Of a stretch of DNA of 64,000 nt, positions 50,571 through 64,000 are shown piece by piece. Under the pieces are notes generated by a model. That model was not told the DNA's origin, searched no databases, and saw only the letters and a program-made list of their open reading frames with translations. The DNA lies in NCBI GenBank assembly GCA_021734065.1, contig JAIPJQ010000002.1, positions 2,136-66,135 on the forward strand. The letters run 5' to 3'. This DNA is from Fidelibacterota bacterium (GTDB lineage: Bacteria; Fidelibacterota; UBA8477). Made by a program: the position numbers and the translations under genes. Within the stretch, counting starts at the first letter, position 1; the number at the start of each line of letters is the position of its first letter.

Positions 50571-52027
50571 GAGAATTAGCCGATTTACTTGAAGGTCTGG
50601 AAGCCAGTATAACCGGTCGGAAAAACCGGATCATCACTGGTTTGGTCTACGATTCCCGAGCCGCCCGGACAGGCAATGTCTTCATCGCTATCAAAGGCGA
50701 GGTTACGGATGGTCACAAGTTCATTGATCGGGCTATTGAAAATGGCGCCATGGTCATCGTCCACGATCATGATTTGGAGCGTTATCGGGATGAAATTACC
50801 TATGTACGGGTTAAAAACTCCCGGGAAGCGATGCCCCATCTGGCCGCCCGCTTTTACTATTTCCCAGCCAACGAAATGCTCACGATTGGCGTTACCGGCA
50901 CGAATGGTAAAACCACCACGACCTACTATTTCCAACACCTTTTAGCCGCTGCACACCAGCAGGCCGCCATTATCGGCACAACCGGTGTGCGCTATGCCGG
51001 TCAGTTTGAAGAACTCCCACACACCACACCGGAATCGGTTGACCTGCAGGCAATTTTAGCAGACTTGGTGATTCACAAATGTCGTGCGTCAATCCTGGAA
51101 GTCTCTTCCCATGCCCTCATCCAGCATCGCGCGGATGAAATCAATTTCAATGCCGCCATTTTCACCAATTTGACGCAGGATCATCTGGATTACCATGCAA
51201 CTCTGGATGCCTACGCCCAAGCCAAGCAAATTCTATTTAATCAGCTCTCAACGGATTCAATCGCGCTGATTAATGGGGATGACGAATATGCAGACGTCAT
51301 GGTGGCAAAGACACCTGCAAAGGTCATTCGTTACGGTCAGGGTGAATCCTGCGATTATCGCCTGACCCGTTTCGAGCCGGGCTCAGAGACTACGCAGTGT
51401 ACGCTACAAACACCCAAGGGTGAGTTGAGCTTCGAAGCCAATATCGTGGGCTTATACAACGGGTATAACCTGCTGGCGGCAATGGCGACTGTCATGGAAC
51501 TGGGATATGACTTTGCCAAATTCCAACAAGCATTGACCAAAATGCCCGCGGTACCCGGCCGGCTGCAACAAATCTGCACATCGCAAAAAAAAGTCTTTAT
51601 TGATTACGCCCACACGCCCAGCGCCATGGAAACGGTCCTGAAAGCATTACGCCAATTCTACCCTGATTCACGGCTCATAACCGTTTTCGGTTGTGGTGGT
51701 GATCGGGATAAGGGCAAAAGACCCATCATGGGAAAAATTGCCACGGAACTGAGCGATTATACGGTGATCACGGATGACAATCCCCGCTCTGAATCCACCG
51801 AGGCCATCATCCGGAACATTCTCACCGGCTGTGTCCCCAATAGTGATTTTGAAATCATCCCCCATCGCTATGGCGCCATTCAGCGAGCTATGCAAATGGC
51901 TGAGGAAACGGATGTCATCGCCGTTCTGGGCAAGGGACATGAGAATTATCAGGAGAAGCAGGGTATTCGCTATCATTTTGACGACACGGAAGTGATCCGG
52001 CGCTGTTTGGAGGTTAATGGCTGTTAA
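50567..52027 (+). CDS. murE: UDP-N-acetylmuramoyl-L-alanyl-D-glutamate--2,6-diaminopimelate ligase
   Basis: GVTGTNGKTTTTYY and the DNPR motif (TDDNPRSE), which indicates meso-diaminopimelate specificity. Confidence 0.9.
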   Translation: MRELADLLEGLEASITGRKNRIITGLVYDSRAARTGNVFIAIKGEVTDGHKFIDRAIENGAMVIVHDHDLERYRDEITYVRVKNSREAMPHLAARFYYFPANEMLTIGVTGTNGKTTTTYYFQHLLAAAHQQAAIIGTTGVRYAGQFEELPHTTPESVDLQAILADLVIHKCRASILEVSSHALIQHRADEINFNAAIFTNLTQDHLDYHATLDAYAQAKQILFNQLSTDSIALINGDDEYADVMVAKTPAKVIRYGQGESCDYRLTRFEPGSETTQCTLQTPKGELSFEANIVGLYNGYNLLAAMATVMELGYDFAKFQQALTKMPAVPGRLQQICTSQKKVFIDYAHTPSAMETVLKALRQFYPDSRLITVFGCGGDRDKGKRPIMGKIATELSDYTVITDDNPRSESTEAIIRNILTGCVPNSDFEIIPHRYGAIQRAMQMAEETDVIAVLGKGHENYQEKQGIRYHFDDTEVIRRCLEVNGC

Positions 52028-53396
52028 TTCACAAAACTGTCGCGCACTCACCGGCGTAAAAATCTTTGGTGAATTCCAGCGACCAATACGTGGTGCTGTT
52101 ATTGATTCGCGCAAGGTTCGGCCGGGTAATTTGTTTGTCGCATTACCGGGCGAACACACGGATGGTCATGCGTTTATTCCGCAGGCAGTGGAAAATGGTG
52201 CTGGCGCAATCCTGGCGAGTCTGGAATGGGCCACCGGCAATGTCTGGAACGCTTCAATTCCCCTCATAGCCGTTCCTGATGTGGAAAAAGCGCTGGGTGA
52301 ATTGGCGCATTTTCATCGCCAACGATTTGATATTCCCGTTTTGGCCATTACGGGTACCAACGGCAAGACCACCACAAAAAATATGGTTGCCGCAGTTCTG
52401 GAAACCCGCTATTCGCTCTTGAAAACTCAGGGCAATCTGAACAACCAACTGGGACTGCCCCTTACCCTGCTGGATATGGATGAAAATCATACCGCTGCCG
52501 TGTTGGAAATGGGAGCCAGCCGTGTCGGCGACATTGCCTATCTCTGCGATATTGCAGAACCTACAGAAGGATTGATCACCAATATTGGTCGGGCGCACCT
52601 GGCATTTTTCCATTCCCTGGAGCGCGTTCAACAGGTGAAGGGGGAACTTATCCAATTCCTGCAGAACCGGGGACGCGTATTCGCCAATACTGACGATGAA
52701 CGGGTGATGGAATTGGCGCGGGATGTGGAGCAGGTCATTCACTTTGGTCGCAATCAGGTTGCCGAATTGCAGATGCAGGACCTGGGTCCGGACGATTGGG
52801 GCTGCCATTCCATCCAGGTGAACGGGAAAGTTACCATGAAGCTACACGTGAGTGGCGCAGCAATGGTTTCCAATGCCGCAGCGGCCATCGCGGTGGGGTT
52901 GGCGCATGATGTTTCGCTGGAAAATATTTCCGCTGCCCTGGCCGGTTATTCCGGTGAGCCAGGACGGATGGAGCATCTGGATATGGCAGGCTTTGCCGTT
53001 ATTCATGACGCCTATAATGCCAATCCGGAAAGCACGCGAATCAGTCTGGAGACATTGGCTCAACTTCCGGTGGATGGTCGGCGGATTGTGGTCTTCGCGG
53101 ATATGCTGGAATTGGGCGAAAGCAGCAAAACCGAACACATCCGGGTTGCGGATGAAATGACGCGCACCTGCGTGGATGTTGCATTTCTGCTTGGACCGGA
53201 AAGTTTGGCAATCCAGGCTGTCCTGGCACCAACCGATCGGGTCAAAACACACCATTTTGACGATTTGAAAGCGCTGGGGACAGCGTTGATGGAATTTATC
53301 CAACCCGGGGACATCGTTCTGCTGAAAGGCAGTCGCGGGATGGGGCTTGAGAAATTGTTACCCATGCTAAAAGGAGTGACGCTCAATGCTCTATAA
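52017..53396 (+). CDS. murF: UDP-N-acetylmuramoyl-tripeptide--D-alanyl-D-alanine ligase
   Basis: ITGTNGKTTTKNM. Confidence 0.9.
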   Translation: MAVNSQNCRALTGVKIFGEFQRPIRGAVIDSRKVRPGNLFVALPGEHTDGHAFIPQAVENGAGAILASLEWATGNVWNASIPLIAVPDVEKALGELAHFHRQRFDIPVLAITGTNGKTTTKNMVAAVLETRYSLLKTQGNLNNQLGLPLTLLDMDENHTAAVLEMGASRVGDIAYLCDIAEPTEGLITNIGRAHLAFFHSLERVQQVKGELIQFLQNRGRVFANTDDERVMELARDVEQVIHFGRNQVAELQMQDLGPDDWGCHSIQVNGKVTMKLHVSGAAMVSNAAAAIAVGLAHDVSLENISAALAGYSGEPGRMEHLDMAGFAVIHDAYNANPESTRISLETLAQLPVDGRRIVVFADMLELGESSKTEHIRVADEMTRTCVDVAFLLGPESLAIQAVLAPTDRVKTHHFDDLKALGTALMEFIQPGDIVLLKGSRGMGLEKLLPMLKGVTLNAL

Positions 53397-54495
53397 GCTG
53401 CTTTACAGCCTCACCGAATATGTATCCGGATTTAATCTGATGCGGTATATCACGTTCCGCTCTGCCATTGCCGCCATTACTGCGCTGCTGTTCTCTTTCA
53501 TTTTAGGACCCCGCATTATCAAAAAACTCTCTGCCATGCAATTGACCGAGACCATCCGTGCCAGCGGTCCCACAACCCACCAGGTGAAGGCGGGCACACC
53601 GTCCATGGGCGGACTGATCATTTTGGGAGCCACGCTGCTCCCCATGCTGCTGTTTGGTGATTTATCCAATATCTATGTCCAGCTCATTCTCATCGCCATG
53701 GTCTGGATGGGACTGGTTGGATTTCTGGATGATTATCTGAAGACGGTGAAGCGGAAAAAAGAGGGGCTCATCGCCCGCTACAAACTGGCCGGGCAGATTG
53801 CTCTGGGCATTTTTATCGGAGTGGTATTCTATCTGCATCCGGACTTTGCAGATCTGGGCACGAAAACCACCATCCCCTTCTTTAAAAATTATGTTCTGGA
53901 TTTTCAGTGGTGGTGGCTCTACATCGCGTTCATTGTATTCGTCATTACGGCCACCAGCAATTCGGTGAACCTGGCAGACGGATTGGATGGACTGGCGTCC
54001 GGATTAATGGCCATTGCCATTCTGGTATTCGCGGCCATTGCCTACATTTCCGGCCGGGCTGATTTCTCCCAATATTTAAATATTTTCTATCTCCCTGGTG
54101 CAGGGGAGCTCACCGTCTATTGTGCGGCTCTTATTGGCGCGATTCTGGGATTCCTGTGGTACAATGCCCGACCTGCAGAGGTTTTTATGGGCGATACCGG
54201 ATCTCTTGCCATGGGAGCCGCCTTAGGCGCACTGGCAGTTATGTTGCGGAAGGAGTTTCTCCTTCCCTTCGCTGCCGCCGTATTCATTATCGAATCCATT
54301 TCCGTCATTCTTCAGGTGCGGTACTTCCAGTACACGAAAAAGAAATACGGTGAGGGACGCCGCCTTTTCAAAATGGCGCCGTTACACCATCATTTCGAGC
54401 TCAAAGGCTGGAATGAGAACAAAATCGTCATCCGGTTTTGGATTCTGGGAATTCTATTCGCCATGCTAACCCTAACCACCTTCAAGATCCGCTGA
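53386..54495 (+). CDS. mraY: Phospho-N-acetylmuramoyl-pentapeptide-transferase
   Basis: 369-aa polytopic protein with MraY signature regions. Confidence 0.9.
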   Translation: MLYKLLYSLTEYVSGFNLMRYITFRSAIAAITALLFSFILGPRIIKKLSAMQLTETIRASGPTTHQVKAGTPSMGGLIILGATLLPMLLFGDLSNIYVQLILIAMVWMGLVGFLDDYLKTVKRKKEGLIARYKLAGQIALGIFIGVVFYLHPDFADLGTKTTIPFFKNYVLDFQWWWLYIAFIVFVITATSNSVNLADGLDGLASGLMAIAILVFAAIAYISGRADFSQYLNIFYLPGAGELTVYCAALIGAILGFLWYNARPAEVFMGDTGSLAMGAALGALAVMLRKEFLLPFAAAVFIIESISVILQVRYFQYTKKKYGEGRRLFKMAPLHHHFELKGWNENKIVIRFWILGILFAMLTLTTFKIR

Positions 54496-55874
54496 TGAAG
54501 CCGACTGAGATAAAGAATAAGCGTGTGACAATCCTGGGAGCAGAGCGTTCCGGGTTGGGTGCGGCCAAATTATTGGCTCATCATGGCGCCAGACTGCTGG
54601 TCAGCGAAAAGGATGCCCTCAAGTTCACCGCAGAGAAACGGGAATTTTTTGCATCAATCAATGCCAAGTTTGAATTTGGGTACCACTCGGATGATGTCTT
54701 CGATGCTGATTTCATCGTGGTTTCACCCGGCATACCTGAAAACGCCGAGATAATGGCGAAAATTAAGGCGAAACAAATTCCGGTCTATTCTGAAGTCGAG
54801 GTGGCCAGTTGGTTCATTGATGAGCCCATCATAGCCGTGACGGGTTCAAATGGCAAAACCACCACGGTTAATCTGATTCATCATGTCTTGACAGCCTGTG
54901 GCATCAACACCTTTCTGGGGGGCAATGTTGGTCAGGCAATTTCTGAGGTCATTTTAGCCCGACAGGCCAGTGATGCTGAAAATGCTGTATTTGTACTGGA
55001 GGTGAGCAGTTTTCAACTGGACCATGTGGAGCGTTTTCACCCCAAAGTCGCAATGATCCTGAATCTCTCTCCGGACCACCTGGACCGGTATGACTCGGTG
55101 GAGGATTACTACAGCAGCAAATTGGGGATCTGGCGGAATCTGGGCGGGCAGGACCTGATCGGTTTTAATGTGGATGATGAGCGGTTGGTGCGTGCTGAGA
55201 AACCCAATGCGAAGCTCCTGGGATTTGGAACGACTGACTCGCCACAGCTTTTTGCCACTGTTCGTGACGGCGAATTGGGAATTATCCAAAACGGTGGCTT
55301 TCAAGCCATTATCCCTGCATCCGAATTGCCTATTCCCGGTCCGCACAATGTGAGTAATGCCTTGGCTTGCATCACGGCAACCAGTGCGTTCGTCCCTGAT
55401 TTGGGAGATATTGGCGCGGCATTACGCACCTTCACACCCGTCCCCCACCGCATTGAGTATGTGGAAACCATCAAGGGCATTCGCTTTTACAACGACTCCA
55501 AGGCTACCAATGTGGCCTCCACAGCTGTGGCAATCCAAAGTTTTAATGAGCCTGAATGGGTCATTCTGGGGGGTAAAGATAAGGGCGGTGAATTTTACAC
55601 ACTGGCAGTGGATTTAGCCCGCCACGCCCGGAAAGTGCTGTTGGTGGGGAAGGCAGCACCGATCATCGCCGAGCAGTTGGCGGGTGCCGTGGAAATGGAA
55701 ACGGTGGGCACCATTGGTAATGCCATTGACTACGCTCTCCGGTACGGTCAGGCAGGCGATGTGGTACTCTTGAGTCCCGGATGTGCCAGTTTCGACCAGT
55801 TTGATAATTACGAGCAGCGTGGTGAATTTTTCATCTCCATCGTAAAGCAGCGGAAGGAGCGGTTGGCGCAATGA
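54495..55874 (+). CDS. murD: UDP-N-acetylmuramoylalanine--D-glutamate ligase
   Basis: GSNGKTTT. Start moved to the ATG at 54495 (MKPTEIKNKRVTILG), overlapping the mraY stop (ATGA). Confidence 0.9.
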   Translation: MKPTEIKNKRVTILGAERSGLGAAKLLAHHGARLLVSEKDALKFTAEKREFFASINAKFEFGYHSDDVFDADFIVVSPGIPENAEIMAKIKAKQIPVYSEVEVASWFIDEPIIAVTGSNGKTTTVNLIHHVLTACGINTFLGGNVGQAISEVILARQASDAENAVFVLEVSSFQLDHVERFHPKVAMILNLSPDHLDRYDSVEDYYSSKLGIWRNLGGQDLIGFNVDDERLVRAEKPNAKLLGFGTTDSPQLFATVRDGELGIIQNGGFQAIIPASELPIPGPHNVSNALACITATSAFVPDLGDIGAALRTFTPVPHRIEYVETIKGIRFYNDSKATNVASTAVAIQSFNEPEWVILGGKDKGGEFYTLAVDLARHARKVLLVGKAAPIIAEQLAGAVEMETVGTIGNAIDYALRYGQAGDVVLLSPGCASFDQFDNYEQRGEFFISIVKQRKERLAQ

Positions 55875-57016
55875 TTCAACGGGTACCATTGGATCGAATT
55901 CTGTTGATATTGGTGCTGGGCTTATTCCTGTTCGGCTCGGTTTCCATGTATTCCGCCTCCACCACCGTAGCGGAACAGGAGTATCAGGATGCCAGTTATT
56001 ATCTGAAAAAGCATTTACGCAATTCCATGGTGGCCATCCTGGTTTTCGTCATTTTTTCCCAATTCAATCATCAGTATTTCCGGAAAATGACAAAGCCCAT
56101 TCTCTTTATCGCTTTGAGCTTACTGGTGGTGGTGATTGCTCAGCATCGCATGTCCAATATTACCCGGCCGGCACGCTGGCTGTATCTGGGGGCATTCAGT
56201 ATTCAGGTTTCGGACCTTGCCCGGTTGGCATTCATCATCTTTATGGCCGATTACATCCATCGAATACAACCCCGGTTGACCGAATTTAAGACCACAATCA
56301 TGCCCATGTTTCTGATAACAGGTCTTACCTGCACACTGGTGGTCTTTGAACCGGATCTTTCCTCGGCAATGATGATTTTGGCCATTGCCATAGCCATGTT
56401 TTTCATGGGTAATGTGCGTATCAGTCACATTTCCGGATTTTTAGCCGCTTCCATTTCCGGCGCCATGATCATGGCGTGGGTGACGCCTTATATGCGCCAA
56501 CGCATTCTAACTTTTTTTGACTCCAGCCGTGATGTCACTCATGCTGGCTATCAAATCCATCAGTCCCTGGTGACGTTAGCGCATGGCGGATTGAGCGGCG
56601 TGGGCCTCGGGGATAGCTTTGGTAAAGCGCTGTATCTTCCCGAGCCCCATACAGATTTTGTATTTGCCATTATTGGTGAGGAATGGGGCTTTATCGGGAC
56701 ATTCCTCCTCCTGTCCCTGTTCCTGCTCATTTTTCTGCGCGGTATGCGTATCGCCCGGAATTCTTCCGATATCTACAGCATGTTATTGGCGGAGGGACTG
56801 AGCTTATCCTTATTCCTGTATGCACTGGCCAATATCGCTGTCGTTGTGGATTTGGTTCCTACTACCGGATTACCGCTTCCGTTGGTGAGTTATGGCGGAT
56901 CCCACCTGATGATCACCGCTGCTATGCTGGGCATTCTTTTCAATATCGCCGGGTCCAATGGCACGGGCGTACTAAAACAATCCGTAGGGAGTATCAGTCG
57001 GCTGTATGACGCCTAG
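55871..57016 (+). CDS. ftsW: Cell division SEDS-family protein FtsW (peptidoglycan polymerase)
   Basis: 381 aa with ten TM helices, in the dcw position. Confidence 0.85.
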   Translation: MIQRVPLDRILLILVLGLFLFGSVSMYSASTTVAEQEYQDASYYLKKHLRNSMVAILVFVIFSQFNHQYFRKMTKPILFIALSLLVVVIAQHRMSNITRPARWLYLGAFSIQVSDLARLAFIIFMADYIHRIQPRLTEFKTTIMPMFLITGLTCTLVVFEPDLSSAMMILAIAIAMFFMGNVRISHISGFLAASISGAMIMAWVTPYMRQRILTFFDSSRDVTHAGYQIHQSLVTLAHGGLSGVGLGDSFGKALYLPEPHTDFVFAIIGEEWGFIGTFLLLSLFLLIFLRGMRIARNSSDIYSMLLAEGLSLSLFLYALANIAVVVDLVPTTGLPLPLVSYGGSHLMITAAMLGILFNIAGSNGTGVLKQSVGSISRLYDA

Positions 57017-58166
57017 AAAACAGCTACGCGTAGCCATCGCAGGTGGCGGAACGGGTGGCCATATCTTCCCCGGATTGGCCATCGCGGAGGGCATTCGTTC
57101 CTTCATTACCACCAGTGCGCGATTCAGCTCGGTTGAATTTGTTTTCTTCGGAGGCAAATACGGTATGGAGAACAAGCTGGTTCCAAATGCCGGTTATCGC
57201 CTCATCCCCCTGTGGATCAAGGGATTTCATCGCACACTCAGTCTGCGCAACATTTTACAGAACCTGATTTTTCCCTTCCGGGTTTTGGTTGCGAATCGCC
57301 AGGCCAGAAATTGGCTGAAATTATTCCAACCCCATGTGGTGATTGGTACCGGGGGATATGCCAGCGCGTTGCCGATTCGTCAGGCAGTGAATCTGGGCAT
57401 TCCGGTTATCCTGCAAGAGCAGAATAGTTACCCCGGCGTTGTGACCCGCCGCTACGCTGCCAAGGCCAAACGGGTCTTCCTCACCTATCCGGAAGCGCTG
57501 GAGTATTTATCGAAATCAGCACCTGGTGAAGTGGTGGGAAATCCCATTCGTCCCAAAATGCGCAGTCAGGACCGACAGGTCGCCGCCGAGTTTTTCGGCC
57601 TCTCACCCCATTACACCACCATTTTCATTTTTGGCGGCTCCCAGGGCGCTCACGCCATCAACGAGCATTTCAAAAACAATCTTCACTATTACCTGGAACA
57701 CTTTCCGGTGCAATTCCTGTGGCAAACGGGTGGCCAGGACTTTTTCCGATGCCAGCAGGTGGTGGCAGGACTGGAACGGGTCCATGCGGCGGCATTCATC
57801 GATGAAATGTCCATGGCCTACTCCCTGGCGGATGTGGCGATCTGCCGCGCGGGCGCCATGACGCTGGCTGAATTGACATTTTTCGGAATTCCGGCTGTCC
57901 TCATTCCCCTGCCGGGCGCAGCCGCGAACCATCAGGAATATAACGCCCGTTCACTGGAAAAACGCGGTGCGGCAAAGGTTCAGCTACAGCAAGAATTAAC
58001 CCGAGAAAATATGGTAAATGCGCTGAAGGATCTCATTATGGACCGCGACGTGCGTGAAGCCATGGGGCGCAAGTCATTGGCGCTGAGTCAACCACAAGCA
58101 ACATCCATTATTGTTCAAACCATTTTTGATACAGCCTGGGATTATGTACAGACCAAACGAAAATAA
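57006..58166 (+). CDS. murG: UDP-N-acetylglucosamine--N-acetylmuramyl-(pentapeptide) pyrophosphoryl-undecaprenol N-acetylglucosamine transferase
   Basis: GGTGGHIFPGLAIAE. Confidence 0.9.
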   Translation: MTPRKQLRVAIAGGGTGGHIFPGLAIAEGIRSFITTSARFSSVEFVFFGGKYGMENKLVPNAGYRLIPLWIKGFHRTLSLRNILQNLIFPFRVLVANRQARNWLKLFQPHVVIGTGGYASALPIRQAVNLGIPVILQEQNSYPGVVTRRYAAKAKRVFLTYPEALEYLSKSAPGEVVGNPIRPKMRSQDRQVAAEFFGLSPHYTTIFIFGGSQGAHAINEHFKNNLHYYLEHFPVQFLWQTGGQDFFRCQQVVAGLERVHAAAFIDEMSMAYSLADVAICRAGAMTLAELTFFGIPAVLIPLPGAAANHQEYNARSLEKRGAAKVQLQQELTRENMVNALKDLIMDRDVREAMGRKSLALSQPQATSIIVQTIFDTAWDYVQTKRK

Positions 58167-59541
58167 ATTGCACCTACACTTTACCGGTATTGGTGGCGCC
58201 GGCATGAGCAGTATGGCCTGGGTGCTGCATCAGATGGGCTATACCGTTTCCGGTTCGGATTTACGGGAAACCGACACTACCCGCTGGCTGGCTGCTCAGG
58301 GACTTGAAATTTTCGTGGGACAGACCGAAGAAAATATCACCCATGCTGACCTGGTGATCTATTCCAGCGCAGTTTCCCAATCCAATCCTGAACGCCAGGC
58401 AGCGCAGGCAGCCGGAATTCCGCAAATCCGTCGCGCTGAAATTCTGGGCGATATGCAGCGACTCTTCAAAACCAGTATCGGTGTAGCCGGAACCCATGGA
58501 AAAACCACAACCACCACCATGATCGCCCGGGCACTGCAGGCCGCCGGCGTGGATCCCTCCTGGGTTATTGGCGGGATCATGAGTGCGCAGGAAACAACCG
58601 GACACCTGGGAAATTCCGAATATTTCGTGGCGGAAGCGGATGAATATGACCGCTCCTTCCACACACTGAATCCCACCATTGCCGTAATCAATAACATTGA
58701 AGCGGATCATCTGGACATTTACCAGAGCTACGAAAAGCTGGTGGAAGGCTTTCTCACTTACTGTGATAAGGTCGCCTTTTACGGTTTTATCGCTGTGGGG
58801 ATTGATGATCCGGAGCTGAATCAACTCCTTCCCAAAATCAACCGTCGTGTGGTCACTTTCGGACTGGCGGAAGCGGCTGAATACCGGGCGGTAAATATCA
58901 AATCCGGCGGTATACGGACCAGTTTTGATCTGCTGCAGCGCGGAAGCCACCTCACAACCGTCACGCTGCAGGTTCCCGGGGAGCATAACATCAAAAATGC
59001 CCTGGCTGCTCTGACCGTGGTGGTTGAATTGGGATTACCCCTTACTGAAGCAGTGAAGGGTCTGGAAGCATATCGGGGTATTCGTCGGCGCTTTGAGCTC
59101 AAGGGTGAAATCAAGAATATCATCTTTATTGATGATTATGCCCACCATCCCGGTGAGATACGGGCGACTCTGGAAGCAGCCCGGGCGGCCTGGCCGGAAC
59201 GCAGACTGGTGGCCTTTTTTCAGCCCCATTTGTTTTCAAGAACCGAAACCCTGGCCATTGAATTCGGCAAAGCATTGACACTGGCGGATGTGGCGGTCAT
59301 CTGTGAAATCTATCCGGCACGTGAGGACCCCATACCCGGGGTTACCAGTCAGTTGGTGGCCGATGCGTGTCACATGGCCGGCGTGCCGGTGGTGCATTAC
59401 TTCACCGACACGAGAACCATCCCAAAATTTATCCACAGTCAACTGCGTCCCGGTGATGTGGTAGTGACCATGGGGGCCGGGGACATTGATCAGGTGAATG
59501 ACGCCATGCGCGCAGCCTGGGAGCAGCCGGAGCATGATTAA
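58144..59541 (+). CDS. murC: UDP-N-acetylmuramate--L-alanine ligase
   Basis: GIGGAGMSSMAWVL and GTHGKTTTT. Start ambiguous between 58111 and 58144. Confidence 0.9.
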   Translation: MYRPNENKLHLHFTGIGGAGMSSMAWVLHQMGYTVSGSDLRETDTTRWLAAQGLEIFVGQTEENITHADLVIYSSAVSQSNPERQAAQAAGIPQIRRAEILGDMQRLFKTSIGVAGTHGKTTTTTMIARALQAAGVDPSWVIGGIMSAQETTGHLGNSEYFVAEADEYDRSFHTLNPTIAVINNIEADHLDIYQSYEKLVEGFLTYCDKVAFYGFIAVGIDDPELNQLLPKINRRVVTFGLAEAAEYRAVNIKSGGIRTSFDLLQRGSHLTTVTLQVPGEHNIKNALAALTVVVELGLPLTEAVKGLEAYRGIRRRFELKGEIKNIIFIDDYAHHPGEIRATLEAARAAWPERRLVAFFQPHLFSRTETLAIEFGKALTLADVAVICEIYPAREDPIPGVTSQLVADACHMAGVPVVHYFTDTRTIPKFIHSQLRPGDVVVTMGAGDIDQVNDAMRAAWEQPEHD

Positions 59542-60301
59542 TAAGAATTTCAACACAGAGAATTTTCGCGGAATTCTATGGTCTTTCATCGCTGTTGCCG
59601 GTTTTGGTTTGCTGGGATTACTCAGCAGTCTGTATGGTGAACATGTGAATGCGGATGTGGTGCGACGGGTCACCATTTACGGGAACCGGATACTCAGTAC
59701 CGAGCGACTGGAGTCCATGCTGCAACCCTATATGTGGCAGCGACTGGAGGCCATTGACGCCGATTCGGTACAGCATCAATTTCTACAGCATCCCCTGGTG
59801 AAAGCTGTGAAAGTAAACCGCATTTTCCCGGATGAGCTTCAGGTGCATATTCGTGAAGTTCATCCCATCGCCTACCTCCAGAGTTCACGGTATTTAAGCA
59901 TTGATATGGACAACAAGGTTCTGCCGTTACCCGATTACGGGATGATCTATACCATGCCCATTATCACCAATATCGGGAATGTTGCAGAGATTGAATCCGA
60001 TGCGATTCTCCAGGATAATTACATCAACCAACTGGTGGACTTCCTGAAACAGCTTCGCAAAGCGTACCCACACATTTATTACGACATTTCAGAAATCAGC
60101 TACTCAGATAAGGAAGGATTAAAAGTTATCACCAGTACAAACAGTACCCCGGTCTACCTGGGAACATACGACCAACTCCCCCTCCGCGTCGCAACGCTGG
60201 ACGCGTTTATCAGACAATTGGATCAGGGGCTGGTTCTCCCGGCGTATCGTTATATGGACCTACGATTTGCAAACCAAGTGGTGGTAAAGGAACGCAATTA
60301 A
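59534..60301 (+). CDS. ftsQ: Cell division protein FtsQ (POTRA domain)
   Basis: Bitopic. Start at ATG 59534 (MINKNF...), overlapping the murC stop. Confidence 0.7.
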   Translation: MINKNFNTENFRGILWSFIAVAGFGLLGLLSSLYGEHVNADVVRRVTIYGNRILSTERLESMLQPYMWQRLEAIDADSVQHQFLQHPLVKAVKVNRIFPDELQVHIREVHPIAYLQSSRYLSIDMDNKVLPLPDYGMIYTMPIITNIGNVAEIESDAILQDNYINQLVDFLKQLRKAYPHIYYDISEISYSDKEGLKVITSTNSTPVYLGTYDQLPLRVATLDAFIRQLDQGLVLPAYRYMDLRFANQVVVKERN

Positions 60302-61554
60302 TGGCACAGTATCAATCAATCGTCATGGGGGTAGATGTAGGAAGCAGCGAAATCTGCACGTTGGTAGCCGGTTCACATCCGGAAACCGAACAAATTGTGT
60401 TGTTGGGAATGGGCGTGACACCCAGCACCGGCTTACGGCGTGGCATGGTGGTGGACATTGACAGTATGAGTCGCGCCATTGGTGACTCCATTGAACTGGC
60501 AGTGAAGGAAGCCGGTGTGCATCCTGACCAGGCGTATGTGAGTATCGCAGGTGAGCACATCGTGAGCCTGAATTCCACTGGTGTCATCGGTATTTCCAAA
60601 CGTGGCAACGCACCGGCAACGATTGCAGAAATCACGGAAGATCATGTAGCGCAGGTACTGGAAGCTGCCAAAGCCATGAAGCTCCCGGAAGGTCGGGAAA
60701 TTATACACACCATCCCCCAGCAGTTTGCTGTAGACGAAGAGCACGGAATTCTGAACCCGGTGGGAATGACCGGCCGCCGTTTGGAGTCCCAGACGCACCT
60801 CATTACCGGTTCACAATCCGCCACGCGGAATCTGGTGCACGCTTTTACCTGGTCGGGTACGAAAGTCCGCCAATTCGTCTTCAGTGCGCTGGCGGCTTCC
60901 CGGTCAACCCTGAGTAAGGACGAGCAAAATATCGGTGTGGGACTGCTGGATATTGGGCGGGACGCCACCACCTGTGTTGTCTTTAATGAATTTGATGTTC
61001 AGTACTCCGATGTACTGTCCATCGCCTCCGGCGCAATCAGCAGTGACATTTCCCAGCTATTACGCATTACAGCCAGTCAGGCTGATGAATTGAAAATTAA
61101 GTACGGCTCCTGCTGGGTGGAGGATACCGCCCGGGACAAGCTGTTTGAAGTAAAGGGTGTGGGTGGCCGGCCCGATGAGAATGTGAGTGAAACTGAATTG
61201 GCTGAATATATCGAAGCCCGTATGGATGAGATCCTGCACCTGGAACGGGATCGCATGTTCCGGGCGGGCGTGTTGAAATATTTACACTCAGGTATCGTCA
61301 TTACCGGTGGCGGTGCGCGACTGCGTGGTCTTATTCCTTTGGCTGAGAAGATCTTCCAGGTTCCGGTTCGTATTGGTACGCCCAGGGACATTTCAGACCC
61401 CAATAATCCCGCGCGTTTACAGGACAGTGCCTACTGCACCGCCGCCGGTCTGGTTTTATACGCCATGGAAGACGCAGGCGGTGGCCGGTGGAACCGCAAG
61501 CAGGTGGGCAAATTCCTGGGACGGATAAAAGATTTTTTGAAGGACAACTTTTGA
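60301..61554 (+). CDS. ftsA: Cell division protein FtsA
   Basis: Actin-fold protein. MGVDVGSSEI. Confidence 0.9.
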   Translation: MAQYQSIVMGVDVGSSEICTLVAGSHPETEQIVLLGMGVTPSTGLRRGMVVDIDSMSRAIGDSIELAVKEAGVHPDQAYVSIAGEHIVSLNSTGVIGISKRGNAPATIAEITEDHVAQVLEAAKAMKLPEGREIIHTIPQQFAVDEEHGILNPVGMTGRRLESQTHLITGSQSATRNLVHAFTWSGTKVRQFVFSALAASRSTLSKDEQNIGVGLLDIGRDATTCVVFNEFDVQYSDVLSIASGAISSDISQLLRITASQADELKIKYGSCWVEDTARDKLFEVKGVGGRPDENVSETELAEYIEARMDEILHLERDRMFRAGVLKYLHSGIVITGGGARLRGLIPLAEKIFQVPVRIGTPRDISDPNNPARLQDSAYCTAAGLVLYAMEDAGGGRWNRKQVGKFLGRIKDFLKDNF

Positions 61555-61581
61555 AAAAAGTAAGAATACAAGGAGGTTCAC

Positions 61582-62820
61582 ATGTTGTTCGAATTTGATG
61601 ATCTCGCCAGACAAAAAGCGAAGATGCGTGTTGTTGGTATCGGTGGAGCCGGTGGCAATGCGATTAACCGAATGATCAACGCCCAATTATCCGGCGTGGA
61701 ATTCATCGCCGTGAATACCGATGCTCAGGCATTGGATAATAATCTGGCAGATGTCAAACTCCAGATCGGTAAACAGCTCACCAAAGGATTGGGAGCCGGT
61801 GCGAATCTGGAAATCGGCCGCGATGCAGCTGAAGAGGATCAACAGGCCGTTTCAGCAGTACTGGACGGTGCTGATATGATTTTCATCACCGCCGGAATGG
61901 GTGGCGGAACCGGCACCGGTGCTGCCCCGGTCATTGCGAAAATTGCCAAGGAGCAGGGTGCACTGACGGTTGGTATCGTCACCACGCCGTTCCGATTTGA
62001 AGGTCCGCTGCGCACCAAGCGTGCGTTGGAGGGGATTCAGTATCTGAAAGACCATGTGGACACACTCATCGTGATCCCCAATCAGCGTCTTTTGGAAGTG
62101 GTGGAACGCGGTACCAGCATTACGGAAGCCTTTCTCGTGGCTGACAGCGTCCTGCATCAGGCGACCAAGGGCATTTCTGACCTGATCAACATCCATGGTC
62201 TCATCAATCTGGATTTTGCAGATGTAAAGACCATCATGTCCGGTATGGGTGATGCCATCATGGGTACCGGTCAGGCGACCGGCGAAGAGCGTGCGGTTCT
62301 GGCTGCGCAATCAGCCATTTCTTCCCCATTGCTGAATAACACCGATATCAATGGTGCCCGGGGCTTGTTGGTGAATGTCACTGGCGGTCCGGATCTTTCG
62401 CTGATGGAAGTGGACGAGGCCATGAATATCATCTACGATGAAGTTGGTGAAGAAGCCAATATCATCTTCGGTGCGGTGATTGATGAGGAGATGGAAGGGC
62501 AGATCAGCGTTACGATTATCGCCACAGGTTTTAACCAGGAATCGGTGCGTAAGGTGGAAGAAAAGCGGGACGAGCCCAAGATTGAGCGGCGCCCGGATTT
62601 CTCCTACAACGATCAGCCGGCTATCGCGACCGAAACACCGGTAAATGGCGATGCAGCCCAGGCTTCCATGGATAAACAGAAGGAAAATTACCTGGATGTA
62701 CCGGCCTATAAACGCCGGATTGAGCGACAGGAATCGGGCAGTGAGAGCAAATCGGTGACGCATCACTTCGGTGATGACTTTGTGATTCCCGAATTCTCGA
62801 AACGGCCTTCATTCCGGTAA
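61582..62820 (+). CDS. ftsZ: Cell division protein FtsZ
   Basis: [13 protein letters not shown] tubulin signature. AAGGAGG ribosome-binding site. Confidence 0.95.
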
Positions 62821-62844
62821 AACCGGGTCACACTTTCGTGGTCC

Positions 62845-62892
62845 GTGAGGCACAACATGGAACCTCACCGTGTTGCAGTGAAATCACACGGT
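62845..62892 (+). terminator. Post-ftsZ hairpins (possible terminator)
   Basis: GTGAGG...CCTCAC, then ACCGTGT-(12 nt)-ACACGGT followed by TTGTATAT. A further GGGGGTC/GACCCC hairpin lies at 62911..62927. Confidence 0.35.
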
Positions 62893-62959
62893 TTGTATAT
62901 CCACCTCCGGGGGTCGATCTGACCCCTGGGGGCTTACTTCTCTTCATCTACTGATTTCT

Positions 62960-64000
62960 GTTTTTGTGGAATGGGATTGGTTTCAATATAAGTATATTTT
63001 CGATGGAATATAATTAATTAAAGCACTCCGTGCCTACCGGGCTTCTTTACTACCATATATTATATTTTTTATAGATTCTTTTATATTTATTTCAACCTTA
63101 TAATTACGTATGAAAACTATATGCTATTTGCGTGAGCCCCTGATATATTATACCACTTGGAGATAATAGAACTTGGGGAATTTATTGTGAATGACCAGCC
63201 AATCTTGATTAAATCGATTGACCAGATTAAGAAGAATTCAGGTCTCTACCAATATGCCGAAGATAAAGTTAAGCAGACAATAATTCTACAGATACTTCAA
63301 AACTGTGGTTGGGATATTTTTTCAGCTAATGAGGTACAGCCAGAATATCCAGTAAATGCTGGAAAAGATGGCCGGGTTGATTACTGCTTGATGATAAATA
63401 ATTACCCAAAATATTTCATTGAAGCTAAAAGGGCTTCTGAGGATCTCTCAAATCACGAAGAACAGCTAATCAAGTACTGTATAGCTTATGGGGTAAGTCT
63501 AGCCATCTTAACAAACGGCCATACATGGTGGTTTTATCTTCCTCTAACGGAAGGCAAGTGGGAGGAAAAGAAATTTTATTCTATTGACCTTGGAGAACAG
63601 ACTAGCATAGATATTGCCGATCGGTTTGTTCAATTTTTACAAAAAGATAACGTCTCAAATGAGGAAGCTCTTACTGCTGCGAAAGAGCTATATAACAGCA
63701 GAAAAAAGAATAAAATTATTCGACAAACACTACCAGATGCTTTGAACCGTATTATATCTGAACCGGATGAGTTTTTCGTTGAATTATTAAGTGAAACGGT
63801 TGAAAAAATTTGTGGATATAAACCAAATGACAGGGTGATACTTGATTTCATCAAAGAGTCAAATTTTCTGCAACCTAAAAATGAAATTCAAAGGGTAAGA
63901 GAGCGTCATAGCCCCGATCGCATTAATCCTATAAAAACCAGGGAGATCCATCCTCAGCAACAAAAAAAATCTCTAATATGGCAGATTGAAAATGTCCAAC
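62960..64000. other. AT-rich (~33% GC) compositional island beginning ~140 nt after ftsZ and truncated by the window end
   Basis: A sharp drop from about 52% to about 33% GC is visible by eye. Confidence 0.5.
63187..64000 (+). CDS. PD-(D/E)xK nuclease-fold protein with a type I restriction enzyme HsdR-N-like domain (5' partial; runs off the window end)
   Basis: Open frame from GTG 63187 (or TTG 63157) to position 64000 with no stop. Contains RVDYCLMINNYPKYFIEAKRASEDL (D...EAK) and GVSLAILTNGHTWWFY, as in HsdR_N/Mrr-like domains. Not in the ORF track because it has no stop. Confidence 0.5.
   Translation, partial: MNDQPILIKSIDQIKKNSGLYQYAEDKVKQTIILQILQNCGWDIFSANEVQPEYPVNAGKDGRVDYCLMINNYPKYFIEAKRASEDLSNHEEQLIKYCIAYGVSLAILTNGHTWWFYLPLTEGKWEEKKFYSIDLGEQTSIDIADRFVQFLQKDNVSNEEALTAAKELYNSRKKNKIIRQTLPDALNRIISEPDEFFVELLSETVEKICGYKPNDRVILDFIKESNFLQPKNEIQRVRERHSPDRINPIKTREIHPQQQKKSLIWQIENVQ

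What the first reader, a model, noticed from the sequence alone, without database searches (positions are those of the whole stretch)
62960..64000. Abrupt AT-rich island right after ftsZ encoding a PD-(D/E)xK, HsdR-N-like protein (truncated by window end)
GC falls from about 52% to about 33% within ~150 nt of the dcw terminator hairpins. The first gene of the island (63187 onward) has the D...EAK nuclease motif and the TNGxxWWFY segment of type I restriction HsdR N-terminal / Mrr-like domains. This suggests a horizontally acquired restriction, defence or mobile-element-associated gene. Insertion next to the highly conserved ftsZ end of the dcw cluster is notable.
Basis: seen in the sequence. 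Interest (0 to 1): 0.55.

Follow-up and report, generated by a model that had tools for sequence, protein, structure and literature searches.

The report
Acquired solitary restriction-type nuclease gene after ftsZ
Right after the cell-division gene ftsZ of a Marinimicrobia bacterium sits a foreign, AT-rich gene. It encodes a stand-alone restriction-type DNA nuclease, an ordinary kind of horizontally acquired defence gene, and the window end cuts it before its DNA-reading domain.

Summary
GC is 0.46-0.55 in all 63 preceding 1-kb bins and 0.353 in the last one (z = -8.7). The drop starts 3-35 nt after the ftsZ terminator.

The ORF from 63187 (271 codons, cut by the window end) passes Pfam HSDR_N (55 bits against a cut-off of 25). 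It has D65, E79-A-K81 and TNGHTWWFY. Its AlphaFold model matches the nuclease domains of HsdR, BpuSI and DrdV.

It is not a type I HsdR. Its relatives are 330-380 aa stand-alone proteins (453 clusters at E<=1e-30). They share an N-terminal nuclease-plus-helical module of about 222 aa and carry swappable C-terminal DNA-reader domains: SeqA-C-like (confirmed by fold), RAMA/DUF4357 and DUF5655.

These genes are usually solitary, single-gene, low-GC islets. The two closest relatives of this organism (92% and 81% DNA identity) have ftsZ, a spacer of about 0.65 kb, then a convergent aminotransferase gene, with no nuclease gene.

Best reading: a recently acquired, probably single-gene, restriction-type and possibly modification-dependent endonuclease, inserted in a permissive convergent spacer.

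The right boundary and the protein's C-terminal domain could not be recovered. This is a new member of a computationally known but biochemically untested kind, of low to moderate interest.

The parts
61582..62820 (+). ftsZ, last gene of the dcw cluster (context; host-like GC)
   Evidence: 412-aa ORF. Pfam Tubulin and FtsZ_C on the identical protein in L001. GC3 is 0.579.
62821..62966 (+). ftsZ 3' trailer, conserved in relatives, with a terminator-like hairpin at 62904-62932. Synteny with relatives ends here.
   Evidence: Terminator scan. The alignment with L002 is conserved to about 62966. L169 (92% identical) aligns to 62935.
62967..63186 (+). AT-rich non-coding leader of the acquired segment (GC 0.295), the presumed promoter region of the nuclease gene
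   Evidence: GC value. No similarity to L002 or L169 beyond the breakpoint. One promoter-like match at 63140-63167, but the number of matches is not above chance. No Rfam match.
63187..64000 (+). 5' part (271 codons) of a stand-alone HSDR_N-type restriction-like endonuclease gene, cut by the window end
   Evidence: Translation. Pfam HSDR_N at 55.1 bits. Homologues of 330-380 aa. AF2 model with pLDDT 86.9.
63253..63591 (+). PD-(D/E)xK nuclease core (residues about 23-135), with D65 (63379-81), E79-A-K81 (63421-29) and TNGHTWWFY (63511-37)
   Evidence: Invariant columns in the 72-sequence alignment. Strand/helix pattern of the model. Foldseek hits 3h1t, 7lo5, 3s1s, 3ijm and EcoR124I HsdR.
63604..63858 (+). 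Conserved helical domain (residues about 140-224) that always follows the nuclease core in this family
   Evidence: Helices H140-224 at pLDDT above 88. The motifs ISEPDE and EKICGY are conserved. DrdV and BpuSI alignments extend over about 200 columns.
63859..64000 (+). Low-complexity linker (residues about 225-261) and the first ~10 residues of the missing, variable C-terminal domain
   Evidence: pLDDT below 50 from residue 245. Homologues diverge here into different C-terminal domains.

Best explanation
The last ~1 kb of the window is the left part of a small, horizontally acquired DNA segment, most likely a single-gene islet of about 1.4-2 kb. It is inserted in the convergent intergenic spacer between ftsZ and a class-III aminotransferase gene of a Candidatus Neomarinimicrobiota (Marinimicrobia) bacterium.

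The gene encodes a stand-alone restriction-type endonuclease of the HSDR_N / 'COG2810-like predicted type IV' kind.

Shown:
- An N-terminal PD-(D/E)xK nuclease core has intact D-(x13)-E-x-K catalytic residues, followed by a conserved helical domain.
- The family is hundreds of 50%-identity clusters of 330-380 aa proteins.
- In the family this constant module is joined through a disordered linker to interchangeable C-terminal DNA-binding domains. Those identified so far are SeqA-C-like (the most common), RAMA/DUF4357 and DUF5655; other C-terminal variants are unassigned.

Inferred:
- The C-terminal domain selects the target DNA and tethers the nuclease, which then cuts nearby.
- The readers are of m6A-associated types, and about 90% of family members have no methyltransferase within 3 kb. 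The enzyme therefore probably attacks DNA carrying a foreign modification or sequence pattern (type IV-like) and serves as innate defence against phages and other mobile DNA.

Which reader domain this particular protein carries is unknown, because the window ends about 10 residues into it.
For: Foreign composition:
- GC is 0.350 against 0.505 +/- 0.018, and GC3 is 0.325 against 0.58.

Absence in relatives:
- L169 (92.2% nucleotide identity over window 53458-62935) and L002 (81%, to 62963) both go from ftsZ through a 0.64-0.70 kb spacer to the aminotransferase gene on the opposite strand, with no nuclease gene.

Junction confirmed:
- A second assembly reproduces it.

Nuclease identity:
- Pfam HSDR_N passes its threshold.
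- D65, E79 and K81 are invariant.
- The AF2 model has pLDDT 86.9, above 90 over residues 1-225.
- Foldseek finds HsdR, DrdV and BpuSI nuclease domains at probability 1.0.

Family architecture:
- The SeqA-C fold of the commonest C-terminal domain is confirmed: 1lrr_A at rmsd 2.1 A over 85 columns, 3sk7_A at 2.0 A over 88, probability 1.0. The GRKRxYF and TN motifs are shared with V. cholerae SeqA.

Solitary context:
- Six looked-up loci have unrelated neighbours: housekeeping genes, toxin-antitoxin modules, and one integrase/IS21 element.
- Unbiased neighbour clustering over 79 loci found no partner family in more than 7 loci. A motif-based search found a methyltransferase candidate within 3 kb in about 9 of the 79 loci.

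Single-gene low-GC islets:
- In 9 loci with host GC of at least 0.45, the gene is 13.5 points lower, the 1 kb upstream about 5 points lower, and downstream about 0.
- A homologue in the same phylum (L082) has 0.354 against 0.556 and 0.477 in its flanks.

Mobility of the wider family:
- Relatives occur in temperate phages (phrog_4225, E = 2.6e-28) and on plasmids.

Literature:
- HSDR_N with COG2810 is listed as a predicted type IV REase (PMC3424549).
- REase-fold nucleases fused to RAMA, and RAMA fused to SeqA, are proposed as m6A-discriminating modules (PMC4738411).
Against: - The right boundary of the segment and the last ~80-110 residues of the protein are not visible. They could not be recovered from any collection. 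Single-gene size, lack of a downstream methyltransferase and the reader domain are therefore extrapolated from homologues.
- No integrase, tRNA or direct repeat marks the left boundary.
- About 1 in 9 homologous loci does have a DNA methyltransferase nearby, some Dam-like with DPPY. Some members may be classical R-M nucleases that cut unmodified DNA.
- No member of this family has been tested biochemically, as far as the searchable literature shows.
- PADLOC has no model for it as a system.
- The Pfam SeqA and RAMA hits are below the curated cut-offs.
- In the sister assembly L001 the ORF is broken at residue 187.
Confidence: 0.7

Rival explanations
1. The nuclease is the first gene of a larger multi-gene restriction-modification or defence island that continues beyond 64000, for example with a cognate methyltransferase. 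It would then cut unmodified DNA (type II-like).
For: A motif-based search found a methyltransferase candidate within 3 kb in about 9 of 79 homologous loci. One Dam-like DPPY gene lies directly upstream (L148) and one MTase overlaps the 3' end (L146). One homologue (P0030) gives a weak hit to the DpnII/MboI REase family, E = 7e-5 and below threshold. L083 lies in a mobile element with integrase, IS21 and HNH genes.
Against: About 90% of the loci show no methyltransferase and no conserved partner. In higher-GC hosts GC returns to host level immediately after the gene. Nothing upstream of the window's gene but ftsZ.
Confidence: 0.17
2. It is an ordinary resident gene with a non-defence role, for example DNA repair or recombination, or SeqA-like replication control. 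Its low GC would come only from its amino-acid composition.
For: No mobility genes are visible. The family's gene GC correlates partly with host GC (r = 0.71, slope 0.44). The SeqA-C fold is known from a replication regulator.
Against: GC3 is 0.325 against 0.58, so synonymous sites are foreign too. The non-coding leader is even more AT-rich at 0.295. The gene is absent at this site in relatives at 92% and 81% DNA identity. Homologues have a patchy distribution across phyla, archaea, phages and plasmids, at about 50% identity. The catalytic triad is intact.
Confidence: 0.06
3. It is an assembly chimera: the AT-rich end belongs to another organism and was joined to the dcw contig by mistake.
For: The source is a metagenome-derived genome. 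The sister assembly L001 diverges from the window at 63747 for its last 137 nt, so at least one of the two contigs has a problem, or a real variant, inside the gene.
Against: L001 independently reproduces the ftsZ/AT-rich junction and 780 nt beyond it at 100% identity. The window's version after 63747 continues the family-conserved sequence (ISEPDEFFVELL...EKICGY), so the window is the intact form.
Confidence: 0.03
4. The gene is a decaying or inactive remnant with no current function.
For: In L001, from the same population, the ORF is interrupted at residue 187. Two metagenomic homologues appear split or frameshifted (L102, L160).
Against: In the window the frame is open for all 271 visible codons, and every invariant family residue is kept.
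Confidence: 0.04

Closest known systems
N-terminal endonuclease domain of type I restriction HsdR subunits (Pfam HSDR_N PF04313; EcoR124I HsdR 2w00, V. vulnificus HsdR fragment 3h1t)
   Same: The PD-(D/E)xK core has the same D-x13-E-x-K spacing. The Pfam score is above threshold. 3h1t is the best Foldseek hit.
   Different: There is no SF2 helicase/translocase part. Relatives are only 330-380 aa. No hsdM or hsdS lies next to it as a rule. NCBIfam HsdR equivalog scores are far below cut-off.
N-terminal nuclease plus helical connector of type IIG/IIL enzymes (BpuSI 3s1s, DrdV 7lo5; PADLOC REase_MTase_IIG)
   Same: Structural alignments cover about 200 columns, taking in the nuclease core and part of the following helices. 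The PADLOC hit covers residues 6-117.
   Different: Those enzymes are 870-1,010 aa and have fused methyltransferase and target-recognition domains. Here the module is followed by a small reader domain of about 100 aa. TM-scores over the whole query are low (0.3-0.37).
DpnI-like and winged-helix fusion type IV endonucleases (m6A-dependent; PMC11037411)
   Same: It would work the same way: a PD-(D/E)xK nuclease fused in one chain to a small domain that reads adenine-methylated DNA. It is solitary and has no cognate methyltransferase.
   Different: Modification dependence has not been tested for this family.
SeqA C-terminal DNA-binding domain (PF03925; 1lrr, 3sk7)
   Same: The commonest C-terminal domain of the family has this fold (rmsd about 2 A, probability 1.0) and keeps the GRxRxYF and TN motifs.
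   Different: The Pfam score is just below cut-off (22.7 against 25.5). There is no SeqA N-terminal oligomerisation domain. It is not known whether the window's own protein carries this domain.
REase-RAMA fusions predicted by Iyer, Zhang and Aravind 2016 (PMC4738411); COG2810 'predicted type IV restriction endonuclease' (PMC3424549)
   Same: Same architecture class. JGI names several homologues with the COG2810 label.
   Different: These are computational predictions only. COG2810 membership was not scored here, because no COG library is available.

Membership tests
PD-(D/E)xK nuclease, Pfam HSDR_N (PF04313) | Profile score above Pfam's gathering threshold | tested here: met
   55.1 bits against 25.1, E = 1.2e-14. 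HSDR_N_2 scores 29.1 against 25.
PD-(D/E)xK nuclease, Pfam HSDR_N (PF04313) | Catalytic D ... (D/E)-x-K residues present | tested here: met
   D65, E79 and K81 are invariant in 72 aligned family members and can be read directly in the sequence.
PD-(D/E)xK nuclease, Pfam HSDR_N (PF04313) | Restriction-endonuclease-like alpha/beta core fold | tested here: met
   AF2 model with pLDDT 86.9. Foldseek finds 3h1t, 7lo5, 3s1s and 3ijm at probability 0.99-1.0, although E-values are only about 1e-3.
Type I restriction enzyme R subunit (HsdR) | SF2 helicase/translocase motor domains after the nuclease domain; protein of about 800-1,100 aa | tested here: not met
   No helicase domain in the 271 visible residues. 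266 family members are mostly 325-400 aa, with the module at the N-terminus. NCBIfam HsdR equivalogs score 20.6 against a cut-off of 550 and 15.7 against a cut-off of 729. The window's own C-terminus is not visible.
Type I restriction enzyme R subunit (HsdR) | Adjacent hsdM and hsdS genes | tested here: inconclusive
   Upstream is ftsZ and downstream is outside the window. In 79 homologous loci only two have an NPPF-type (HsdM-like) gene within 3 kb.
Type IV (modification-dependent) restriction endonuclease | Nuclease and a modified-DNA reader domain in one polypeptide | tested here: inconclusive
   The nuclease is present. The reader domain of the window protein is cut off. In relatives the C-terminal domains are SeqA-C (by fold), RAMA/DUF4357 (sub-threshold) and DUF5655 (32.5 bits against 24).
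Type IV (modification-dependent) restriction endonuclease | No cognate methyltransferase | tested here: inconclusive
   None upstream in the window, and downstream is unseen. About 70 of 79 homologous loci have none within 3 kb.
Type IV (modification-dependent) restriction endonuclease | Cleavage requires modified DNA | not testable with these tools
   This needs biochemistry. No experimental report was found.
Type IIG/IIL restriction-modification enzyme (BpuSI/MmeI/DrdV type) | Fused gamma-class N6-adenine methyltransferase and target-recognition domains | tested here: not met
   PADLOC and Foldseek matches cover only the N-terminal nuclease part. Relatives are too short and have no MTase domain.
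Genomic island / horizontally acquired segment | Composition deviating from the host genome | tested here: met
   z = -8.7 for the last kb. GC3 is 0.325 against 0.58.
Genomic island / horizontally acquired segment | Absent from the same site in close relatives | tested here: met
   L169 (92% nt) and L002 (81% nt) have ftsZ, spacer and aminotransferase without the gene. Synteny stops at 62935 and 62963-62966 respectively.
Genomic island / horizontally acquired segment | Integrase, tRNA target or flanking direct repeats | tested here: inconclusive
   There are no tRNAs in the window and no meaningful repeats at 62700-64000. The right end is not available.

The most novel reading that the evidence does not exclude
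The family this gene belongs to would be an uncharacterised class of single-chain, modification-reading restriction endonucleases. A constant HsdR-type nuclease-plus-helix module would be retargeted by swapping small readers. Its commonest form, with a SeqA-C reader, would cut Dam-type (hemi)methylated GATC DNA, making it a functional analogue of DpnI built from different parts. The gene would spread as a self-contained single-gene islet of about 35% GC into genomes of any composition, here into a Marinimicrobia dcw-cluster flank.
Probability: 0.3. Interest if true: 0.45.

Novelty: new member of a known kind. Interest (0 to 1): 0.25.

Why it matters
For this genome it marks a strain-level accessory gene and a variable site directly downstream of the dcw operon. 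That is useful for strain tracking and for judging contig ends in Marinimicrobia MAGs.

More generally, the family is large: 453 50%-identity clusters at E<=1e-30. It is modular, untested in the laboratory and absent from the PADLOC defence library searched here. The nuclease-SeqA-C and nuclease-RAMA forms are ready-made candidates for new m6A-dependent restriction enzymes. These would have value as phage-defence determinants and as reagents for mapping adenine methylation.

None of this is surprising to a specialist. The architecture class has already been predicted computationally.

Tried and rejected
**Extending the contig beyond 64000**
- An exact-protein look-up of FtsZ found only L001, which ends earlier.
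- A metagenome scan with the lineage-specific FtsZ C-terminus found nothing.
- A viral-contig scan with the nuclease fragment found nothing.
- The protein search returned no hit above 56% identity, so the full-length protein is not in the 5.8-billion-protein set.
- I then searched for the expected right-flank gene, the aminotransferase of L002. Its closest relatives yielded two further related loci, L169 (ftsZ and aminotransferase adjacent) and the more distant L170, but not the window's own right flank.

**Other negative results**
- Rfam has no match in 62700-64000.
- The promoter scan is not above chance.
- Repeats at the boundary are only short chance-level pairs.
- The 137-nt divergent tail of L001 has no match in the window, the loci or the plasmids.

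**Ideas rejected**
- The cupin gene next to homologues in two phyla looked like a possible partner. It is rejected: 27% identity over 52 aa, and host-like GC.
- I tried to assign the window's C-terminal domain from its last 10 residues (SLIWQIENVQ). Weak alignments to P0043 and P0084 are not decisive.

**Not run**
Full report
**1. The observation**

The end of the window carries the distal dcw cluster: murG 57006-58166, murC, ftsQ, ftsA 60301-61554 and ftsZ 61582-62820, all on the + strand. The identical genes in a public contig have the matching Pfam annotation.

Composition changes abruptly after ftsZ:
- GC lies between 0.462 and 0.546 in each of the 63 preceding 1-kb bins (mean 0.505, sd 0.0175).
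- It is 0.353 in the last bin, z = -8.7.
- No 1,034-nt window upstream falls below 0.453. The segment 62967-64000 has 0.350.
- A terminator-like hairpin lies at 62904-62932.
- The non-coding stretch 62967-63186 has GC 0.295 and the ORF 0.365.
- GC3 of the ORF is 0.325, against 0.57-0.58 for ftsZ, ftsA and murC.

The ORF opens after a stop at 63133-63135. It most likely starts at GTG 63187, which is preceded by GGGGAA and agrees with homologue N-termini and with the gene call in L001. It runs off the window after 271 codons.

**2. Source organism and reality of the junction**

An exact-sequence look-up of FtsZ found one public contig, L001 (GCA_021734585.1, JAIPIS010000003.1). It is 100% identical to window 51582-63746. 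A second assembly therefore reproduces the ftsZ/AT-rich junction and 780 nt beyond it.

L001 then ends with 137 nt unrelated to the window. After that point the window's version continues the sequence conserved across the family, so the window holds the intact form.

The closest species-representative genome is a Candidatus Neomarinimicrobiota MAG from 'Tobar14m' (L002, FtsZ 98% identical).

**3. Comparison with relatives**

- L002 is 81% identical in DNA to window 51583-62963. The similarity ends there, after the conserved ftsZ trailer and terminator.
- Downstream, L002 has about 0.70 kb of spacer and then a class-III aminotransferase gene on the minus strand, followed by a response regulator, a histidine kinase and a TonB-type receptor. 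GC stays near 0.5 and there is no nuclease gene.
- Searching for that aminotransferase led to a closer relative, L169 (Logan SRR16297628). It is 92.2% identical to window 53458-62935 and has the same ftsZ, 0.64-kb spacer, aminotransferase arrangement.
- The L169 spacer carries REP-like hairpins.
- A more distant relative, L170, has a Y1-transposase gene flanked by such hairpins next to the 3' end of the aminotransferase gene.
- Still more distant Marinimicrobia have a dusB-like gene after ftsZ.

The AT-rich segment therefore sits in a convergent, repeat-prone intergenic spacer that varies between relatives. It is absent from the two nearest genomes available.

I could not recover the right-hand boundary. 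The source contig is not in the metagenome, viral or exact-protein collections.

**4. The protein**

Sequence-profile results:
- Pfam gives HSDR_N at 55.1 bits (cut-off 25.1) and HSDR_N_2 at 29.1 bits (cut-off 25).
- PADLOC gives only partial hits, to the N-terminal parts of type IIG and type I proteins.
- NCBIfam HsdR equivalogs score far below their cut-offs.

In a 72-sequence alignment these residues are invariant: E25, W42, P52, D65, E79, K81, Q93, T109-N-G111, W114 and Y117-L-P-L. D65-x13-E79-x-K81 is the PD-(D/E)xK signature.

An AlphaFold2 model built with this alignment has mean pLDDT 86.9, and above 90 for residues 1-225. It shows:
- an alpha/beta nuclease core at residues about 23-135;
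- a helical domain at residues about 140-224;
- a disordered tail from residue 245.

Foldseek against the PDB returns the V. vulnificus HsdR fragment 3h1t, the type IIL enzyme DrdV (7lo5), the type IIG enzyme BpuSI (3s1s), a Spirosoma REase-like protein (3ijm) and EcoR124I HsdR. Probabilities are 0.99-1.0, although E-values are only about 1e-3.

**5. The family**

- The word-indexed search found 335 relatives, the best at 44-56% identity. Nearly all are 330-380 aa, and Pfam recognises only HSDR_N in them. Some are named 'predicted type IV restriction endonuclease' or 'type I restriction endonuclease' by their sources. They come from many bacterial phyla and from archaea.
- The exhaustive search of 1.84 billion cluster representatives with residues 1-225 gave 453 hits at E<=1e-30 and 1,955 at E<=1e-10. 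The module is almost always at the N-terminus.
- The first ~222 residues are conserved. After a variable linker the proteins carry different C-terminal domains.

C-terminal domains found:
- The commonest has the motifs F-x-F-x-G-x-x-Y, GRKRPYF and ETNLSAN. It gives sub-threshold Pfam SeqA hits (22.7 bits against 25.5) and a phmmer alignment to V. cholerae SeqA that shares the GRKRxYF and TN motifs. An AlphaFold2 model of the full-length member P0007 (pLDDT 89.7) matches SeqA C-terminal domains: 1lrr_A at rmsd 2.1 A over 85 columns and 3sk7_A at 2.0 A over 88, both at probability 1.0.
- Other members carry RAMA/DUF4357-like domains (sub-threshold), DUF5655 (32.5 bits against 24) or other, unassigned domains.

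The window's protein ends about 10 residues into this domain. Attempts to assign it from those residues were inconclusive.

**6. Genomic context of relatives**

- Six looked-up loci show unrelated neighbours: housekeeping genes, BrnT/BrnA, HicA and PIN toxin-antitoxin modules, and in one case an element with integrase, IS21, HNH and ParAB genes.
- Eighty further metagenomic loci were fetched. All-against-all clustering of ORFs within 3 kb across 79 loci found no partner family in more than 7 loci. That family is a set of DNA methyltransferases. A separate search for methyltransferase sequence motifs found a candidate within 3 kb in about 9 loci.
- The gene's GC is 0.35 +/- 0.05, whatever the host's GC over the range sampled. 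The regression slope on host GC is 0.44.
- In the 9 loci with host GC of at least 0.45, the gene is 13.5 points lower, the kilobase upstream about 5 points lower, and the downstream flank is at host level.
- A homologue in another Neomarinimicrobiota MAG (L082, 54% identical) is exactly such a single-gene islet: 0.354 against 0.556 and 0.477 in its flanks.
- Distant relatives (about 30% identity) occur in temperate phages (phrog_4225 'endonuclease', E = 2.6e-28) and on large plasmids.

**7. Interpretation**

Shown:
- The segment is compositionally foreign and is absent at this site from the nearest relatives.
- It encodes a PD-(D/E)xK nuclease of the HsdR-N type with an intact catalytic signature.
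- The protein belongs to a large family of short, stand-alone, modular proteins.

Inferred:
- The segment is a single-gene islet, by analogy with homologous loci.
- The missing C-terminal domain is a DNA reader that directs the nuclease.
- The enzyme restricts incoming DNA, probably in a modification-dependent (type IV-like) way. The reasons are that most members lack a methyltransferase and that the readers are of m6A-associated kinds.

This architecture class has been predicted before. Steczkiewicz et al. 2012 list HSDR_N with COG2810 as predicted type IV REases (PMC3424549). Iyer, Zhang and Aravind 2016 describe REase-fold nucleases fused to RAMA, and RAMA fused to SeqA, as m6A-discriminating modules (PMC4738411). 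Helbrecht et al. 2024 name RAMA fusions as untested candidates (PMC11037411).

I found no experimental characterisation.

**8. Rivals**

- A larger R-M or defence island continuing beyond the window (0.17). A minority of loci with methyltransferases supports it.
- A resident non-defence gene (0.06). GC3, the AT-rich leader, absence in relatives and the patchy distribution contradict it.
- An assembly chimera (0.03). The second assembly contradicts it.
- A decaying remnant (0.04). The L001 variant hints at this, but the window's frame and all invariant residues are intact.

**9. Verdict**

Three points need correcting:
- It is not a type I HsdR.
- It is probably one gene rather than an island.
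- The site next to ftsZ is a permissive convergent spacer rather than a notable target.

It is a new member of a computationally known, experimentally untested kind. Interest is low to moderate (0.25). The most novel reading not excluded is a SeqA-C or RAMA-guided, m6A-reading, single-chain restriction enzyme family. I give that a probability of about 0.3 and an interest of about 0.45 if true.

Noticed in passing
window 63747 onward; L001 12166-12302: The public contig L001 (GCA_021734585.1) is 100% identical to the window up to 63746. It then ends with 137 unrelated nt of about 50% GC, which break the nuclease ORF at residue 187. The tail has two direct copies of CGGACACC and one inverted copy. 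It may be the end of a mobile element in a subpopulation or a chimeric contig end. It has no match in the window, the fetched loci or the plasmid collection.
   Followed up: partly
L169 about 1890-2528 (spacer); L170 1541-2350: In relatives the ftsZ/aminotransferase spacer carries REP-like hairpins (CACGACC...GGTCGTG). In L170 it carries a Y1-transposase (RAYT-like) gene flanked by CCACGACAT...ATGTCGTGG hairpins. The spacer looks like a recurrent landing site for mobile DNA.
   Followed up: partly
L089-L168, L082-L088 (homologous loci): Genes of this nuclease family keep GC near 0.35 (sd 0.05) in hosts whose GC ranges widely, with a slope of 0.44 on host GC. In higher-GC hosts they form sharp single-gene GC dips.
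   Followed up: yes
L093, L118, L137, L146, L148, L155, L159: A minority of family members have DNA methyltransferase genes within 3 kb: Dam-like DPPY, SPPY N4/N6 or NPPF HsdM-like. In L148 one lies directly upstream and in L146 one overlaps the 3' end. Some members may therefore be true R-M pairs.
   Followed up: partly
L086 6370-6964; L087 1950-2138; L083 1220-1865; L085 4124-4797: Toxin-antitoxin modules (BrnT/BrnA, HicA, PIN) lie close to several homologues, directly beside them in L086 and L087. This suggests shared small accessory-gene hot spots.
   Followed up: no
L082 6971-7465; L085 7287-7781: A 164-aa cupin gene lies next to the homologue in two unrelated phyla. The two cupins are only 27% identical over 52 aa and have host-like GC, so this is a coincidence.
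   Followed up: yes
window 62821-62966: The ftsZ 3' trailer of about 145 nt, including the terminator hairpin at 62904-62932, is conserved with L002 and L169, although the gene that follows differs. There is no Rfam match.
   Followed up: partly
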